Assembly (NCBI GenBank): GCA_944393325.1
Contig: CALXZU010000004.1
Coordinates: 1 to 57,618 of the forward strand
DNA: 57,618 bases
Direction of reading: 5' to 3'
Source of the DNA: an uncultured Clostridia bacterium
GTDB taxonomy: Bacteria > Bacillota > Clostridia > TANB77 > CAG-508
Shown: one piece after another, positions 31,376-51,673 of the stretch
Position numbering within the stretch: the stretch's first letter is position 1
Layout: every line of letters begins with the position of its first letter
Notes under the pieces: generated by a model
Databases searched by the model: none
What the model was told of the DNA's origin: nothing
The model's input: only the letters and a program-made list of their open reading frames with translations
Translations under genes and position numbers: made by a program

Positions 31376-31410
31376 ATAAATATCCACCAGCTTAGCTAGT
31401 GGATATTTAT
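31376..31410 (-). terminator. Terminator after the cotJC 3' fragment
   Basis: ATAAATATCCAC...GTGGATATTTAT inverted repeat. Confidence 0.65.
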
Positions 31411-31604
31411 TAATCACATTTATTATTCATATAAAATTTTTTCATTGCAAGTTTATCTTGCACTCCACGAAGCGCTTCTCCAAATCTCTGGAAGTGTACT
31501 ACTTCTCTTTCTCTCAAATATCTTAATGGGTCTAATACATCTGGATTATCTCTACATAAATCAATTAATTTTTCATAAGTTGCCCTAGCTTTTTGTTCTG
31601 CTGC
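31410..31604 (-). pseudogene. cotJC: cotJC (Mn-catalase family) 3' fragment
   Basis: AAEQKARATYEKLI...DPLRYLREREVVHFQRFGE; similarity begins at the GCAGCAGA core (31597-31604). Confidence 0.88.
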
Positions 31605-31623
31605 ACCTTTGAAAGTACAACAA
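31597..31623 (-). other. Recombinase-proximal attachment junction: core plus attP arm
   Basis: Minus strand TTGTTGT-ACTTTCAAAGGT-GCAGCAGA, directly after the recombinase stop codon. Confidence 0.85.
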
Positions 31624-33186
31624 TTAAATTTTCCAATGTATTTCAATAGGTTTCTTCTTTGTTTCTGGGTCTTTTGCTCCTACTTCTATGTAATCAATTA
31701 AGTTTTCAACCATCTCTCTTGTTAATTCTGTTACATTAGTATACTTTTCTAATATATATTTTTTATTATTTAAAGCATCTTGCTCATTATCAATCTTCTG
31801 TAATTTTTGTTTTCTTTCATTCAATATTTTTTCAAGGTTTTCTTTTTCTTTATTAAAATTTTTGTTAAATTCTAAAAATTGTTCTTGCGTTATTATTTCA
31901 TTAACTTTATCCAAATATAAATTTTGTATAATTTTTGTTTTTTTATCTATAGTCATTTGATATTGAGAAATTTCTTTTCGCAATTCTTCCTTTTCATTTT
32001 TAAATTGTTTTAAAATAATACTTTCTTTTAATTCATCAACATTTAAATATTGTTCTATTAATGAATTCAGTTCCTTTAATACTGTCCTTTTAAGTACATT
32101 TTCTGATATGAAACTACCCTTGCAAGATGATTTATCGATTTGTCTTGTTGGACATCTTAAATATCTATCTTCACGAGTTTTACTACTTTTTAGAATATAG
32201 CCACAATATTTACATTTGCACTTTTTAGCAAATACTCCTATTTTTCCACCTTCAAATGGTTTAAAATTATTATTTACTTTTTTTTGTACCCTATTCCATA
32301 ATTCTATATCAATTATTGGTTCATGTGTATTTTTTACTATAACCCATTGATCTTTTGGTTTTGGTTTATTCTTTTTACTTTTATATGAAATACTACCATA
32401 TCTACCTTGTACCATATTTCCTATATACATCTCATTTGTTAACATACTTGAAATTGAAGAATACTTCCATAATGTTCCTGTTTTTCCTTTAGGTTTTTTA
32501 TATGCAATTCCTTGTTCTAATTTATATTGTGTAGGGTTTGGTATTCCTCTATTATTCAATATTCTAGCTATTGCTGTTTTCCCATAACCTTGATCATATA
32601 ACTTAAATACTTCTCTTACAGTTTGTGCAGCCTCTTCATCTATAATTAAATGCCCTTTTTTATCTGGATCTTTTTTATATCCATATAATGCTATTCCTCC
32701 AGTAAATAAACCATTTTTTCTTTTATTTTCTAAAACAGTTTTTATATTGTCTGATAAATCTTCTAAAAACCATTCATTTACCAGTCCATTAATTTGCCTT
32801 GACTTTTTATTTCCTTTTATATTAGTATCAGCATTATCAACCAAACCAACAAATCTTATTCCCCATTCAAGGAATAAACCATTTATGTATTTTTCTACTA
32901 ATTCCAATTCTCTTGTAAACCTGCTTTGACTTTTACATAAAATAATATCGATTTTTCTTTCTTCAGCTAACTTTAATACTTTATTAAAATCAGGTCTATT
33001 TCTATCTGCACCAGTATAATCATCATCACTATAAATACCTTCTATATCCCAACCTTGTTTTATCGCATACTCGGCTAGCATAAGTTTTTGGTTTTTTATA
33101 CTTGTACTATCATCCTCCTCATTTTCTTTATTTCTATCTTCCTCTGATAATCTGCAATATATTGCTACTTTTAATTTTTCGTTCAT
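31624..33186 (-). CDS. Large serine recombinase, SpoIVCA-like
   Basis: IYCRLS catalytic Ser, YSDDDYTG, SRFTR, recombinase domain, zinc ribbon CKYCG...RC...C, coiled coil. Confidence 0.93.
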   Translation of the reverse strand: MNEKLKVAIYCRLSEEDRNKENEEDDSTSIKNQKLMLAEYAIKQGWDIEGIYSDDDYTGADRNRPDFNKVLKLAEERKIDIILCKSQSRFTRELELVEKYINGLFLEWGIRFVGLVDNADTNIKGNKKSRQINGLVNEWFLEDLSDNIKTVLENKRKNGLFTGGIALYGYKKDPDKKGHLIIDEEAAQTVREVFKLYDQGYGKTAIARILNNRGIPNPTQYKLEQGIAYKKPKGKTGTLWKYSSISSMLTNEMYIGNMVQGRYGSISYKSKKNKPKPKDQWVIVKNTHEPIIDIELWNRVQKKVNNNFKPFEGGKIGVFAKKCKCKYCGYILKSSKTREDRYLRCPTRQIDKSSCKGSFISENVLKRTVLKELNSLIEQYLNVDELKESIILKQFKNEKEELRKEISQYQMTIDKKTKIIQNLYLDKVNEIITQEQFLEFNKNFNKEKENLEKILNERKQKLQKIDNEQDALNNKKYILEKYTNVTELTREMVENLIDYIEVGAKDPETKKKPIEIHWKI

Positions 33187-33282
33187 TTTATCAATTTCCT
33201 CCTAAATTAAAATTCAATAAAATGAACCAACACTATAATATATTTTATAATATAATGTTGGTTTCGTAAATTGTATGTTGGA

Positions 33283-33384
33283 TTATTTATTGATACTTAA
33301 ATTAACTATTTTTTGCCAGACTTCATTAAATTTTTTTCTTCTTTCCTCATCATTAGTTGAAATAAATACATTTATTATATCCAT
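33283..33384 (-). CDS. 33-aa ORF upstream of the recombinase, candidate directionality factor
   Basis: GAGGTG RBS then MDIINVFISTNDEERRKKFNEVWQKIVNLSINK*; not in the ORF track. Confidence 0.55.
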   Translation of the reverse strand: MDIINVFISTNDEERRKKFNEVWQKIVNLSINK

Positions 33385-33458
33385 GACAGCCACCTCATTT
33401 AATGATATTCAAATTTTTCATTTTTATAAACAGATTTTAATATTTGTATTATTATTAT

Positions 33459-33941
33459 TTACATTTCATTATTTATTATTTCATCTGCTAACTTTTCTAT
33501 TTCAACGGGAGAATGTAGTTCCATGAGTGTCAAAATATAGTTTCCGAATAATTTGCTTGTTATTTTTAAATTTCCAGAACTTTTTAAATTTTCTCTTGCA
33601 ACTATTCCATAAGACGCTACTTGTTTTCTTGTAATAAATTCTGTTTTTTCTTCTTTTTCTAAAGCTATCCTTTCAAAATAACTTTCATCTTTAGTAGCTT
33701 TATCAATATCAATTCCTAGTGAAATAATAATTCCCTTATCTACTTCTTGCATTTCTTTTGAATTTAATGTTCCTATATAATATCTTAATCTTTCTTTATC
33801 AATGACTCTTATTTGCTCAAGTAAAATTAAAGAATTTTTAGGTAATCTTTTTGCATCACCTTTTATAAAAATGTGAGTAGGCAATTTTGCCTTAACTTTT
33901 ACTTTACTTGTAATAGGTGCAATTATTACTGTTGGACTATA
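33459..33941 (-). pseudogene. 5'-truncated PemK/MazF-family toxin with C-terminal extension
   Basis: YSPTVIIAPITS...LPTH...LLEQIRVIDKERL...IGTL; N-terminal segment and start absent. Confidence 0.75.
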
Positions 33942-50789: not shown

Positions 50790-50927
50790 TTTTGTTCCCC
50801 CAAAAAAACATAATTTCTTTTATATTATACCAAATTATCGAAGTTATGTCAATTTGTTTTACATTTACTGGTAAATAGTTTTACTGGTTTTTATAAAAAT
50901 TAAATTCATCAACATTAACTTGATTTA

Positions 50928-51155
50928 TTATATTTTTATTGCTACAACCATTTCATTGCTTTCTACAATATTTATTATTCCATTGTATTTATACTTTGCA
51001 TTTGTAAAATAGACCTCATATCCATATTCTTGAAATTTATCTCTTGCTAATATCAAAAAAGCATTTTCATCTTTCTCAGAAATATTAAGTTCAATCTTTA
51101 CTTCATAATAAGTACATATTATTTTATTAGCATTTGACTTTAGTTTATTTTTCAA
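50928..51155 (-). CDS. Small hypothetical protein
   Basis: 75 aa ORF, start uncertain. Confidence 0.45.
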   Translation of the reverse strand: MKNKLKSNANKIICTYYEVKIELNISEKDENAFLILARDKFQEYGYEVYFTNAKYKYNGIINIVESNEMVVAIKI

Positions 51156-51163
51156 ATATGTAT

Positions 51164-51308
51164 TTATTTCTTTAGTAATTTTAATAATACCTCATTAATA
51201 GGTTCAGATGGTCTATGTTCTCTTATTTGTTCGTTTCTTTTTTCTAATAGTGCATCTACAATAAGTTTTCTTTCTTCTTCGTTAATCTTAATTTTTATTT
51301 TTTTTCAT
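51164..51308 (-). CDS. 47-aa ORF with one apparent extra A after the start codon
   Basis: GGAG RBS; an A7 instead of A8 run gives MKKIKIKINEEERKLIVDALLEKRNEQIREHRPSEPINEVLLKLLKK*. Confidence 0.45.
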
Positions 51309-51424
51309 CCTATTTTTCTCCTATGATTATTTTACTATATTTTCTCTCAAATCTTTTTCTTTGTCAATATAGTCTAATATTCAATTTTCTTTATCGTGTT
51401 GATTCATTTTATTATCTTTTTCAG

Positions 51425-51457
51425 TTGTTGTGCCATCATAGTAGCACCATCTGCTGC
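51425..51457 (-). other. Distal attachment junction: core plus attP arm
   Basis: Minus strand GCAGCAGA-TGGTGCTACTATGATGGC-ACAACAA. Confidence 0.85.
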
Positions 51458-51673
51458 TAAATCTTCTTGTAAATTTGCAATTGGATCTCCTTTACAAGCA
51501 AGTACTGATGCTGAAAATGGAACTCCAGCTGCAGATTGTGGGTATACATCTACACCATGGTCAGTATAATATGCATCAAGTCCCGCTTCTTGTATTTGCT
51601 CTATTGTAGCATTTTTAGTTAATTGATGCACTATAGTTCCTACCATTTCTAAATGTGCTAATTCTTCTGTTCC
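51450..51673 (-). pseudogene. cotJC: cotJC (Mn-catalase family) middle fragment
   Basis: GTEELAHLEMVGTIVHQLT...DHG...YPQSAAGVPFSA...KGDPIANLQEDLAA; no homologous sequence or RBS upstream. Confidence 0.88.

What the first reader, a model, noticed from the sequence alone, without database searches (positions are those of the whole stretch)
31410..51673. Spore-coat gene cotJC interrupted by a 19.85-kb skin-like element; excision restores the frame exactly
Seen: the middle fragment ends GAA GAT TTA GCAGCAGA|TGG and the 3' fragment begins GGT GCAGCAGA|ACAAAA. Recombining the cores gives EDLAAEQKARATYE, restoring the conserved AAEQKA motif. A SpoIVCA-like LSR ends beside the junction, and no phage structural or conjugation genes are recognisable. 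Known: skin in sigK (B. subtilis, C. difficile), SPbeta in spsM and vfbin in spoVFB are excised during sporulation; cotJC is a mother-cell gene in B. subtilis. Inference: developmentally programmed excision of an element in cotJC. I do not know of this target being described but cannot search.
Basis: partly seen in the sequence, partly recalled or inferred. Interest (0 to 1): 0.92.

Follow-up and report, generated by a model that had tools for sequence, protein, structure and literature searches.

The report
Recombinase island splitting spore-coat gene cotJC
A 19.9-kb mobile island with its own serine recombinase and anti-phage genes sits exactly inside the spore-coat gene cotJC of a chicken-gut Clostridium, at the spot used by a large family of such islands; cutting it out would rebuild the gene, but removal during sporulation is inferred, not shown.

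Summary
cotJC (minus strand) is split by a 19,853-bp insertion flanked by the 8-bp core GCAGCAGA. Sister-strain contigs carry the empty site, and their sequence equals the predicted joint exactly. The island ends in an intact large serine recombinase (LSR). It carries defence-type cargo (a viperin homologue, and a kinase/vWA/phosphatase module), a group II intron and an IS, and no phage or conjugation genes.

New here:
- About 70 of the 80 closest LSR relatives (53-100% identity, many Clostridia families) lie beside a cotJC fragment broken at codons 133-136, with the same core.
- 79 of 80 have a conserved, unannotated 33-50-aa ORF just upstream of the LSR, usually followed by a hairpin.
- Half have a sigma-E-type promoter (ATA-N15-18-CATA) at a fixed position. 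The window's own clade has a variant without CATA.

Programmed excision in the mother cell is therefore plausible but untested. The reads showed no excision products. This gene is also broken a second time, at codon 62, by another element. cotJC has already been named in the literature as a target (Abe 2013; Galperin 2022). This is a new member of a known kind, of moderate interest.

The parts
31410..31604 (-). cotJC 3' fragment (codons 134-197 plus stop)
   Evidence: tblastn against intact CotJC P0002 gives 100%. Pfam Mn_catalase.
31597..31604 (-). attR core GCAGCAGA (gene sense); the predicted crossover GA lies inside it
   Evidence: The same core is found in all resolved relatives.
31624..33186 (-). 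Large serine recombinase, 520 aa, intact; it has all residues invariant in the family, including R12 and the catalytic S14
   Evidence: Pfam Resolvase + Recombinase + Zn_ribbon_recom + DUF4368. Family alignment A1. TnpX is the best solved relative.
33225..33263 (-). Hairpin between the small ORF and the LSR, followed by CAUUUUAUUG
   Evidence: MFE -17.7 kcal/mol, z = -3.6. A comparable hairpin scores z < -2 in 48 of 55 relatives with a gap of at least 45 nt.
33283..33384 (-). 33-aa ORF (MDIINVFISTNDEERRKKFNEVWQKIVNLSINK), the candidate recombination directionality factor
   Evidence: Homologues lie directly upstream of the LSR in 79 of 80 loci; F and W are invariant. No Pfam, NCBIfam or PDB match. 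139 database clusters, all unnamed or 'hypothetical'.
33402..33430 (-). Promoter-like TTTATA-17-TATCAT upstream of the small ORF. In the family frame it reads ATA-N15-AATA, with no CATA.
   Evidence: compared with relatives.
33459..33884 (-). MazF/PemK-like toxin remnant (only the C-terminal half of the profile matches)
34139..35323 (-). Radical-SAM prokaryotic viperin (pVip) homologue
   Evidence: PADLOC pVip, E = 3e-48. Pfam Radical_SAM.
35504..37240 (-). Group II intron: RT/maturase ORF at 35504-36904, RNA domains at 36929-37240
   Evidence: Pfam RVT_1 + GIIM. Rfam RF02001 and RF01998. Raised depth indicates several copies.
37973..39928 (-). Ser/Thr protein kinase-domain protein (651 aa)
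   Evidence: Pfam Pkinase. PADLOC PD-T4-6-like, E = 7e-10.
40178..41200 (-). Protein with an ATLF-like metallopeptidase domain (weak match)
   Evidence: Pfam PF07737, E = 2.7e-7.
41490..42770 (-). IS with a DDE transposase (multi-copy)
   Evidence: Pfam DDE_Tnp_1 families. Depth is 2-3x that of its surroundings.
42882..50789 (-). Two large PPP-type phosphoesterases (42882-45677 and 47691-50789) flanking two vWA proteins (45772-46464 and 46697-47386)
   Evidence: Pfam Metallophos and VWA. PHROG NinI-like phosphatase.
51450..51457 (-). attL core GCAGCAGA
51450..51673 (-). cotJC middle fragment (codons 62-136)
   Evidence: tblastn. 100% identical to L001. Pfam Mn_catalase.
51674..57618 (-). Visible end of a second, independent insertion at cotJC codon 62: AbiQ/ToxN, a KAP-like NTPase, and SDR and RhuM fragments. 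It runs off the window.

Best explanation
This is a non-phage integrative island from a large family of elements whose large serine recombinase (LSR) is dedicated to one site in cotJC.

Site and integration (sites shown, chemistry inferred): the target is the core GCAGCAGA, which encodes Ala-Ala-Glu of the conserved AAEQKA metal-site motif. The LSR recombined a roughly 52-bp quasi-palindromic attP, symmetric about a GA dinucleotide inside the core, with attB in cotJC. That left attL and attR and split the gene.

Maintenance (shown): the island sits in the vegetative chromosome at the same read depth as its flanks. It carries accessory, mostly defence-type cargo that turns over quickly between near-identical copies.

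Excision (inferred): the LSR, together with the conserved 33-aa protein encoded just upstream acting as a directionality factor, recombines attL x attR in the sporulating mother cell. This rebuilds cotJC there, while the spore keeps the island. It is the logic of skin (CD1231 + CD1234) and gin (GirC + GirX).

In this genome a second element at codon 62 would have to leave as well.

My odds: LSR-mediated site-specific insertion at this attB, about 0.95. Mother-cell-timed excision for the family, about 0.6. The same for this particular copy, about 0.45.
For: Empty site and att sites:
- The empty-site alleles equal the predicted attB.
- attP is complementary at 17 of 24 arm positions around GA.

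Family specificity:
- 41 loci have the LSR 3' end abutting the cotJC 3' fragment and 15 have it abutting the 5' fragment. Only about 6 of 80 show no cotJC piece in the locus.
- The core GCAGCAGA and the attP arms are conserved in every locus that was resolved (8 of the 12 holding both junctions), in both LSR orientations.
- Most of about 36 IMG/VR contigs with a family LSR show the same junction.

Partner gene and regulation:
- The small ORF is conserved in 79 of 80 loci. A hairpin follows it in 48 of 55.
- ATA-N15-18-CATA lies upstream of the small ORF in 38 of 73 loci, with CATA 109-141 nt before the conserved Trp codon. The rate is 8% elsewhere in the loci and 9.7% in shuffles, maximum 18%.
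- This matches the C. difficile sigma-E promoter form ATA-N16-CATATATA (PMC3789822). The skin directionality factor CD1234 is under sigma-E plus SpoIIID (PMC5025042).
- cotJC homologues are sigma-K-dependent in C. difficile. The intact cotJA here is preceded by CATATAAT.

Selection on split genes:
- 0 of 51 3' fragments and 0 of 14 5' fragments contain stop codons.
- In pairs where LSR and host divergence match (L053/L067: dS 0.63 vs 0.64; also L039/L043 and L074/L075), cotJC dN/dS is 0.01-0.09.
Against: - No attB or attP form of the same strain appears in four DNA runs at about 6-20x. These are assembler contigs, which drop rare variants.
- The rejoined-junction RNA contig in X26 could come from an element-free strain.
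- The window's clade lacks the CATA -10 and the ACAAG box. Its promoter reads equally well as a weak sigma-A type.
- The LSR is often more similar between hosts than cotJC is (L013/L014: dS 0.03 vs 0.52), so the elements move horizontally and many insertions are recent.
- The occupied and empty alleles coexist in one species.
- The closest named LSRs, TndX and TnpX, excise without a directionality factor (established knowledge).
- cotJC is dispensable for sporulation and often has paralogues (PMC11222575).
- A second insertion breaks the gene anyway.
Confidence: 0.55

Rival explanations
1. Passive safe-harbour insertion. The LSR family uses the conserved cotJC sequence only as a widely available, dispensable landing site. 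The island excises, if at all, only for horizontal transfer. Carriers simply make spores without this CotJC, or use a paralogue.
For: - There is a horizontal-transfer signature: LSR dS is well below host dS in several pairs.
- The site is polymorphic within the species.
- Double occupancy makes reconstitution harder.
- The window's clade has no canonical mother-cell promoter.
- No excision products were found.
- CotJC-type catalases are redundant in C. difficile (PMC11222575).
Against: - Half the family has a sigma-E-type promoter at a fixed position.
- A partner ORF is conserved throughout the family.
- Split genes show no decay, and dN/dS is 0.01-0.09 in co-diverging pairs.
- Every experimentally studied LSR element in a mother-cell gene has proved to be developmentally excised (skin, SPbeta, vfbin, gin, yin; PMC10747680).
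Confidence: 0.33
2. Immobilised remnant. The island is a decaying element whose recombination system no longer works. cotJC is a pseudogene in this lineage.
For: - The cargo holds a MazF remnant, an IS, and a group II intron between cargo genes.
- SDR and RhuM gene fragments lie next door.
- The gene is cut twice.
Against: - The LSR is full length with all family-invariant residues.
- The small ORF, the hairpin and both att sites are intact.
- The cotJC fragments are 100% identical to the intact allele at protein level (the 3'-side DNA match, flank included, is 99.4%), so the insertion is recent.
Confidence: 0.1
3. Assembly artefact. The contig joins DNA from different organisms, or mis-joins across the IS or the intron.
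For: - Unitigs break at the intron (about 35495-36348) and at the IS (about 41472-42757).
- An earlier scan note (e1-4882567) found a chimeric cotJC contig elsewhere.
Against: - Both cotJC pieces and the flank match one species background, L001, at 99.4-100%.
- Both junctions are spanned by independent unitigs, and depth is even across all unique segments in X1 and X2.
- L008 and L009 independently link the LSR end to the kinase and pVip segments.
Confidence: 0.02

Closest known systems
skinCd in sigK of Clostridioides difficile (LSR CD1231 plus the 72-aa directionality factor CD1234; PMC5025042)
   Same: - An LSR gene sits at one end of an element inside a mother-cell gene.
- A short identical core lies at both ends.
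- There is a small protein partner with no database homologues.
- In half of the present family the partner has an ATA-N16/17-CATA promoter, like the sigma-E promoter of CD1234.
   Different: - The target is cotJC, not sigK, so the host is not forced to excise in order to sporulate.
- The partner is 33-50 aa, lies directly upstream of the LSR, and was not found in any protein-family library or among solved structures (no direct comparison with CD1234 was made).
- Excision is not demonstrated.
- The cargo is defence-type.
gin element in gerE of Bacillus cereus ATCC 10987 (GirC plus the small, often unannotated GirX; PMC5595907)
   Same: - A non-phage intervening element.
- An LSR of about 58 kDa with a tiny directionality factor that annotation misses.
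- A 9-bp core.
- Family members here include minimal elements of 3-5 kb.
   Different: - A different gene and a different host class (Bacilli versus gut Clostridia).
- GirC/GirX activity and sporulation timing were shown experimentally; nothing has been shown here.
Earlier in-silico reports of cotJC interruption: the Abe et al. 2013 survey (as cited in bioRxiv 10.1101/2021.11.22.469490) and the skin-like element in cotJC of Laceyella sacchari (bioRxiv 10.1101/2022.02.25.481979)
   Same: The same target gene and the same skin-like interpretation.
   Different: In the texts I could read, those reports are single mentions. They do not describe the dedicated LSR clade, the fixed codon 134-136 core, the conserved small ORF and promoter, or multiple occupancy. 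I could not read Abe 2013 itself.
TnpX (Tn4451) and TndX (Tn5397) transposon LSRs
   Same: - They are the closest named LSRs by sequence: TndX 32% identity, and the TnpX catalytic domain is the best PDB match.
- They share the C-terminal DUF4368.
- They are clostridial, non-phage elements.
   Different: - Those enzymes insert at loosely defined GA-centred sites and excise on their own (established knowledge).
- This family has one fixed genic target and a conserved partner ORF.
Cyanobacterial heterocyst elements (nifD, fdxN/XisF, hupL; multiply split nif genes of Calothrix NIES-4101, PMC11249958)
   Same: - A gene needed only in a terminally differentiated cell is split by several recombinase elements.
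- XisF is among the best NCBIfam matches for the LSR, though below its cut-off.
   Different: - A different phylum and a different developmental programme.
- Excision has been demonstrated there.

Membership tests
Sporulation-gene intervening element (skin / SPbeta / vfbin / gin type) | Inserted inside the coding sequence of a gene expressed only in the mother cell | tested here: met
   The target is the third gene of a cotJA-cotJB-cotJC operon (Pfam CotJA, CotJB, Mn_catalase). [quoted passage not shown] A CATATAAT -10 lies upstream of cotJA in L001.
Sporulation-gene intervening element (skin / SPbeta / vfbin / gin type) | Short identical core at both ends, and precise deletion restores the open reading frame | tested here: met
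   The 8-bp core lies at 31597-31604 and 51450-51457. The empty-site alleles are identical to the predicted joint. The joined protein is 100% identical to P0002.
Sporulation-gene intervening element (skin / SPbeta / vfbin / gin type) | Carries its own site-specific recombinase next to an att site | tested here: met
   The LSR at 31624-33186 ends 19 nt from the core.
Sporulation-gene intervening element (skin / SPbeta / vfbin / gin type) | The recombinase or its directionality factor is under mother-cell (sigma-E / sigma-K, SpoIIID) control | tested here: inconclusive
   ATA-N15-18-CATA occurs at a fixed place in 52% of family loci against 8-10% in controls. The window's own clade has ATA-N15/16-AATA and no CATA. 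There are no expression data.
Sporulation-gene intervening element (skin / SPbeta / vfbin / gin type) | Excised as a circle during sporulation and retained in the spore genome | not testable with these tools
   Only assembler contigs of metagenomes were available. They hold no same-strain attB or attP, and the one RNA junction contig is ambiguous.
Large serine recombinase (serine integrase) | N-terminal resolvase catalytic domain with the nucleophilic Ser, plus recombinase and zinc-ribbon domains | tested here: met
   Pfam PF00239, PF07508, PF13408 and PF14287. R12 and S14 are invariant in the family alignment.
Large serine recombinase (serine integrase) | Quasi-palindromic attP of about 50 bp with a central crossover dinucleotide shared with attB | tested here: met
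   17 of 24 arm positions are complementary around GA. The arms are conserved in relatives. Cleavage itself was not tested.
Prophage | Capsid, tail, terminase, portal or lysis genes | tested here: not met
   No such PHROG or Pfam hit in any cargo ORF. No phage in INPHARED has an LSR above 41% identity.
TnpX/TndX-type mobilisable or conjugative transposon | Relaxase/Mob or conjugation genes, and an LSR that acts without a fixed genic target | tested here: not met
   There are no Mob or conjugation families; the only trace is a sub-threshold TraI_2_C hit, E = 0.005. The target is fixed across about 70 loci.

The most novel reading that the evidence does not exclude
In many gut Clostridia, cotJC is a developmentally assembled gene that serves as a parking place for accessory DNA. 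Two or more unrelated LSR families each own one conserved metal-site motif of the gene: codons about 61-65 and codons 134-136. Each pairs the recombinase with a tiny, unannotated directionality factor behind a sigma-E/SpoIIID-type promoter and a hairpin. Defence islands ride in the germ line and are cut out, sometimes two at a time, only in the mother cell. The result is a multi-step gene assembly like the split nif genes of heterocystous cyanobacteria.
Probability: 0.4. Interest if true: 0.7.

Novelty: new member of a known kind. Interest (0 to 1): 0.5.

Why it matters
If excision is timed to sporulation, cotJC joins sigK, spsM, spoVFB, spoVR, gerE and yabG as a developmentally rearranged gene. 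It would do so in abundant, mostly uncultured gut Clostridia rather than in model species.

The family offers three practical things:
- A set of related LSR/attB/attP triplets, with a candidate 33-50-aa directionality factor, for recombinase engineering.
- A case where the orientation of attP relative to the LSR gene has flipped while the attB core stayed the same.
- A route by which anti-phage cargo is kept in the germ line at no cost to vegetative cells.

There is also an annotation consequence. These split genes are called pseudogenes or fragments, and the small ORF is usually not called at all.

Tried and rejected
I therefore could not look for the cotJC 5' fragment, the recombinase of the second element, or cotJC paralogues in this genome.
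- Reads: four chicken-gut DNA runs hold the integrated form only. The contigs that look like attB carry mismatches and belong to other organisms.
- Metatranscriptomes X25 and X26 show intact cotJC transcripts. One has the window's exact allele, which is indistinguishable from element-free strains.
- A try on the cultured-species locus L042 found only low-depth runs (about 4-18x), and the one attB-like contig there came from another allele.
- OY725852.1, a 23.9-kb 'plasmid' of Subdoligranulum with a family LSR, was checked as a possible excised circle. It is a chromosomal piece with the usual LSR-cotJC junction.
- L008 (MAG BRZ_FC__bin42) was first taken for the source contig. It is a 99% relative with different cargo.
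- An apparent 47-aa ORF at about 51164-51308 is closed by a stop after a poly-A run.
- The small protein has no match in Pfam, NCBIfam or the PDB.
- IMG/VR contigs with family LSRs were checked for phage genes. The cargo is mixed (ABC transporter, two-component system, one tail/peptidase-like hit) and does not show that the family is viral.
- Abe et al. 2013 is not held in the paper library.

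
Full report
**1.

cotJC lies on the minus strand. Its last 64 codons are at 31410-31604 and codons 62-136 are at 51450-51673. The two pieces end and begin with the same 8 bases, GCAGCAGA in gene sense (plus-strand TCTGCTGC at 31597-31604 and 51450-51457). The inserted DNA is therefore 19,853 bp.

Joining the pieces gives ...QEDLAAEQKARATYE.... 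A database search with the joined protein found a 197-aa CotJC (P0002) that is 100% identical over all 136 residues. P0002 is encoded on eight metagenome contigs as the third gene of an intact cotJA-cotJB-cotJC operon. The same downstream genes follow it as in the window.

At the DNA level:
- L001 6187-6407 equals window 51670-51450 (100%).
- L001 6400-12594 equals window 31604-25423 (99.4%).
- The two matches overlap by exactly the 8-bp core.
- The attB built from the window's two junctions is letter-for-letter the L001 sequence.

This is a true empty site, not a chance repeat.

Independent unitigs from four chicken-gut runs cross both junctions. They give the same depth on flank and element, about 20x in two of the runs. 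One caveat: unitigs break at the group II intron and at the IS inside the island, so the internal order rests on the assembler and on partial confirmation from two related MAG contigs.

**2. What the island contains**

Next to attR, ending 19 nt from the core, is an intact 520-aa large serine recombinase (LSR) with Resolvase, Recombinase, Zn_ribbon_recom and DUF4368 domains. Its best named relatives are TndX (32% identity) and the TnpX catalytic domain (the best solved-structure match). No phage in INPHARED comes closer than 41%.

Upstream of the LSR, in order, are:
- a strong hairpin (z = -3.6);
- a 33-aa ORF with a good ribosome-binding site.

The cargo consists of:
- a MazF remnant;
- a prokaryotic viperin homologue (PADLOC, E = 3e-48);
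- a group II intron (RT/maturase ORF plus Rfam D1-D4 domains);
- a Ser/Thr kinase;
- a protein with a weak ATLF-like peptidase domain;
- an IS with a DDE transposase;
- two large PPP-type phosphoesterases flanking two vWA proteins.

Nothing resembles capsid, tail, terminase, lysis, replication or conjugation proteins.

A 99%-identical relative, L008, lacks window 33670-37326, the segment that holds the viperin gene and the RT and most RNA domains of the group II intron. The cargo therefore turns over quickly.

**3. The LSR belongs to a family dedicated to this site**

A scan of one genome per prokaryotic species returned 504 relatives. I examined the 80 closest (53-100% identity). They come from Lachnospiraceae, Oscillospiraceae, Blautia, Holdemanella, Christensenellaceae, Anaerotignum, [Eubacterium] saphenum and unnamed Clostridia.
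- In 41 loci the LSR's 3' end abuts a cotJC 3' fragment that starts at residue 132-135.
- In 15 loci it abuts, convergently, a 5' or middle fragment whose match usually ends at residue 136.
- Most of the rest hold a cotJC piece elsewhere in the locus. Only about six show none.

I tried all 12 loci that hold both junctions, plus a Subdoligranulum record. Eight of the 12 and the Subdoligranulum record resolved, and in each the core is GCAGCAGA(G) in gene sense. In those eight the joined frame reads D..TDL.ED(M/L)AAEQKAR, and the attP arms are conserved (..TTACAAAGG-core-TGCTGC..). The other four did not resolve with my coordinates.

In the convergent class the LSR gene lies on the other side of attP. 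The orientation of the core relative to the LSR gene has flipped, while its orientation relative to cotJC has not.

Elements range from about 3 kb (little more than the LSR) to 20 kb. About 36 IMG/VR contigs carry family members, most with the same junction. The cargo I sampled from them is not clearly viral.

**4. A conserved partner, a hairpin and a promoter**

An ORF of about 27-60 aa lies directly upstream of the LSR, on the same strand, in 79 of 80 loci and in the window. Its core pattern is C-x-N-(I/V)-F ... F-T-x-x-W-I-x-L-I-N, and F and W are invariant.
- It matches no Pfam or NCBIfam family and no solved structure.
- It forms 139 clusters in the protein collection, all unnamed or 'hypothetical'.
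- Where the gap to the LSR is at least 45 nt, it folds into a hairpin with z < -2 in 48 of 55 loci, although the sequences differ.

Upstream of the small ORF, 38 of 73 loci carry ATA-N15-18-CATA, with CATA 109-141 nt before the conserved Trp codon. The same pattern occurs in 8% of equal-sized segments elsewhere in the loci and in 9.7% of shuffles (maximum 18%).

The spacer usually holds G(G/T)ACAAG. From memory this resembles the B. subtilis SpoIIID box, and it only partly fits the C. difficile consensus KRTAACARK (PMC5025042). That is a lead, not a test.

The skin directionality factor CD1234 is controlled by exactly this pair, sigma-E plus SpoIIID. GirX of gin is a similarly tiny protein that is often left unannotated (PMC5595907).

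Important for this window: its own clade (L008-L024) keeps the -35-like (G/T)(A/C)ATAA and the spacing, but has TGAATAnnAT where the others have CATA. It also lacks the ACAAG box. The simple scan reads it as a weak sigma-A-type TTTATA-17-TATCAT.

**5. Are split genes kept functional?**

None of 51 3' fragments and none of 14 5' fragments contains a stop codon.

Many LSR pairs are more similar than their host cotJC (for example L013/L014: dS 0.03 against 0.52). The elements therefore move between hosts, and many insertions are young. The window's own insertion is young too: its fragments are identical at protein level to the empty allele.

Some pairs look co-inherited:
- L053/L067 have LSR dS 0.63 and cotJC 5'-fragment dS 0.64, with cotJC dN/dS 0.04. 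The 3' fragment has no non-synonymous change.
- L039/L043/L050 and L074/L075 behave alike, with dN/dS 0.01-0.09.

Purifying selection on a gene that has been split throughout that time argues that the gene is put back together somewhere in the life cycle.

**6. What could not be shown**

No same-strain attB or attP contig exists in the four DNA runs that hold the island. The attB-like contigs there carry mismatches and belong to other organisms.

A chicken-gut metatranscriptome (X26) has a contig covering 31533-31604 and continuing TAAATCTTCTTGT. That is the exact rejoined junction with the window's allele. Element-free strains carry the same allele, so it proves expression of an intact cotJC in that community, not excision.

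Attempts on a cultured-species locus gave only low-depth runs (about 4-18x).

**7. The gene is cut twice**

Similarity to the intact gene stops at 51670-51673, and the first 61 codons are absent from the window. The DNA beyond that point carries AbiQ/ToxN, a KAP-like NTPase, and SDR and RhuM fragments. It runs off the window.

A break at residues 59-65 recurs in at least nine related loci. In L028 and L065 a different LSR, 20% identical to this one, lies beside it.

One X3 contig carries the same second element at codon 62 with the codon-134 site empty, in another cotJC allele. The two insertions are therefore independent. Removing the 19.85-kb island alone would not restore cotJC here.

**8. 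Comparison with the literature, and verdict**

Intervening elements excised by LSRs during sporulation are established for sigK, spsM, spoVFB, gerE and yabG (PMC10747680) and for spoVR.

cotJC has been named as a target. [quoted passage not shown] I found no experimental work on cotJC elements and no description of the dedicated LSR clade, its partner ORF or its promoter. This scan's own notes already list 97 such findings in at least 85 genomes.

This window is thus a well-documented new member of a known kind.
- The insertion mechanism is secure.
- Mother-cell-timed excision is a reasonable inference for the family, about 0.6.
- It is weaker for this copy, about 0.45.

Interest is moderate.

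Noticed in passing
window 51671-57618 (runs off the window); L028 5902-7461; L065 7660-9243: cotJC is cut a second time, at codon 62 (the GTEELAH motif), by an independent element. A break at residues 59-65 recurs in at least 9 related loci. In L028 and L065 a second LSR family lies beside it, only 20% identical to the codon-134 LSR.
   Followed up: partly
window 33225-33263 (minus strand) and the equivalent gap in 48 of 55 related loci: A stable hairpin sits between the small ORF and the LSR gene. It is kept as a structure although its sequence differs between clades; in the window's clade it is followed by CATTTTATTG. It may be an attenuator or terminator controlling read-through into the LSR.
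   Followed up: partly
L008 (MAG BRZ_FC__bin42) versus window 33670-37326: A 99%-identical copy of the island lacks window 33670-37326 (the viperin gene and the group II intron RT and most RNA domains); 240 bp stand in its place. Cargo turns over quickly between near-identical elements.
   Followed up: partly
L008 6800-6930: Downstream of cotJC in L008, a terminus identical to the second element's end (..TTTTTAATTGACAACATC) is joined to a stranded cotJC piece (residues 79-103, 92% identical). It looks like a relic of an older insertion or deletion.
   Followed up: no
window 51450-51950, run X3 record 18: One metagenome contig has the second element at codon 62 (333 nt identical to the window) but an empty codon-134 site, and a divergent stretch of cotJC between them. 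The two sites are occupied independently, in different hosts.
   Followed up: partly
window 37973-50789: A Ser/Thr kinase, two vWA proteins and two very large PPP-type (NinI-like) phosphoesterases form a block. It recalls the TerY-P triad but has PPP rather than PP2C phosphatases. PADLOC has no match apart from weak PD-T4-6-like hits to the kinase.
   Followed up: no
window 34865-36865 and 41535-42868: The group II intron and the IS have 2-3 times the depth of their surroundings in X1, X2 and X4. Both are therefore multi-copy in these communities, and the unitigs break at them.
   Followed up: no
L001 5280-5332: The intact cotJA is preceded by CATATAAT about 20 nt upstream of its ribosome-binding site. 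This is the -10 reported for C. difficile sigma-K promoters.
   Followed up: no
window 51164-51308 (minus strand): A possible small gene at the attL end of the island is closed by a stop straight after an A8 run (ATGAAAAAAAATAAAAATTAA). It is either a slippery-run frameshift or not a gene.
   Followed up: no
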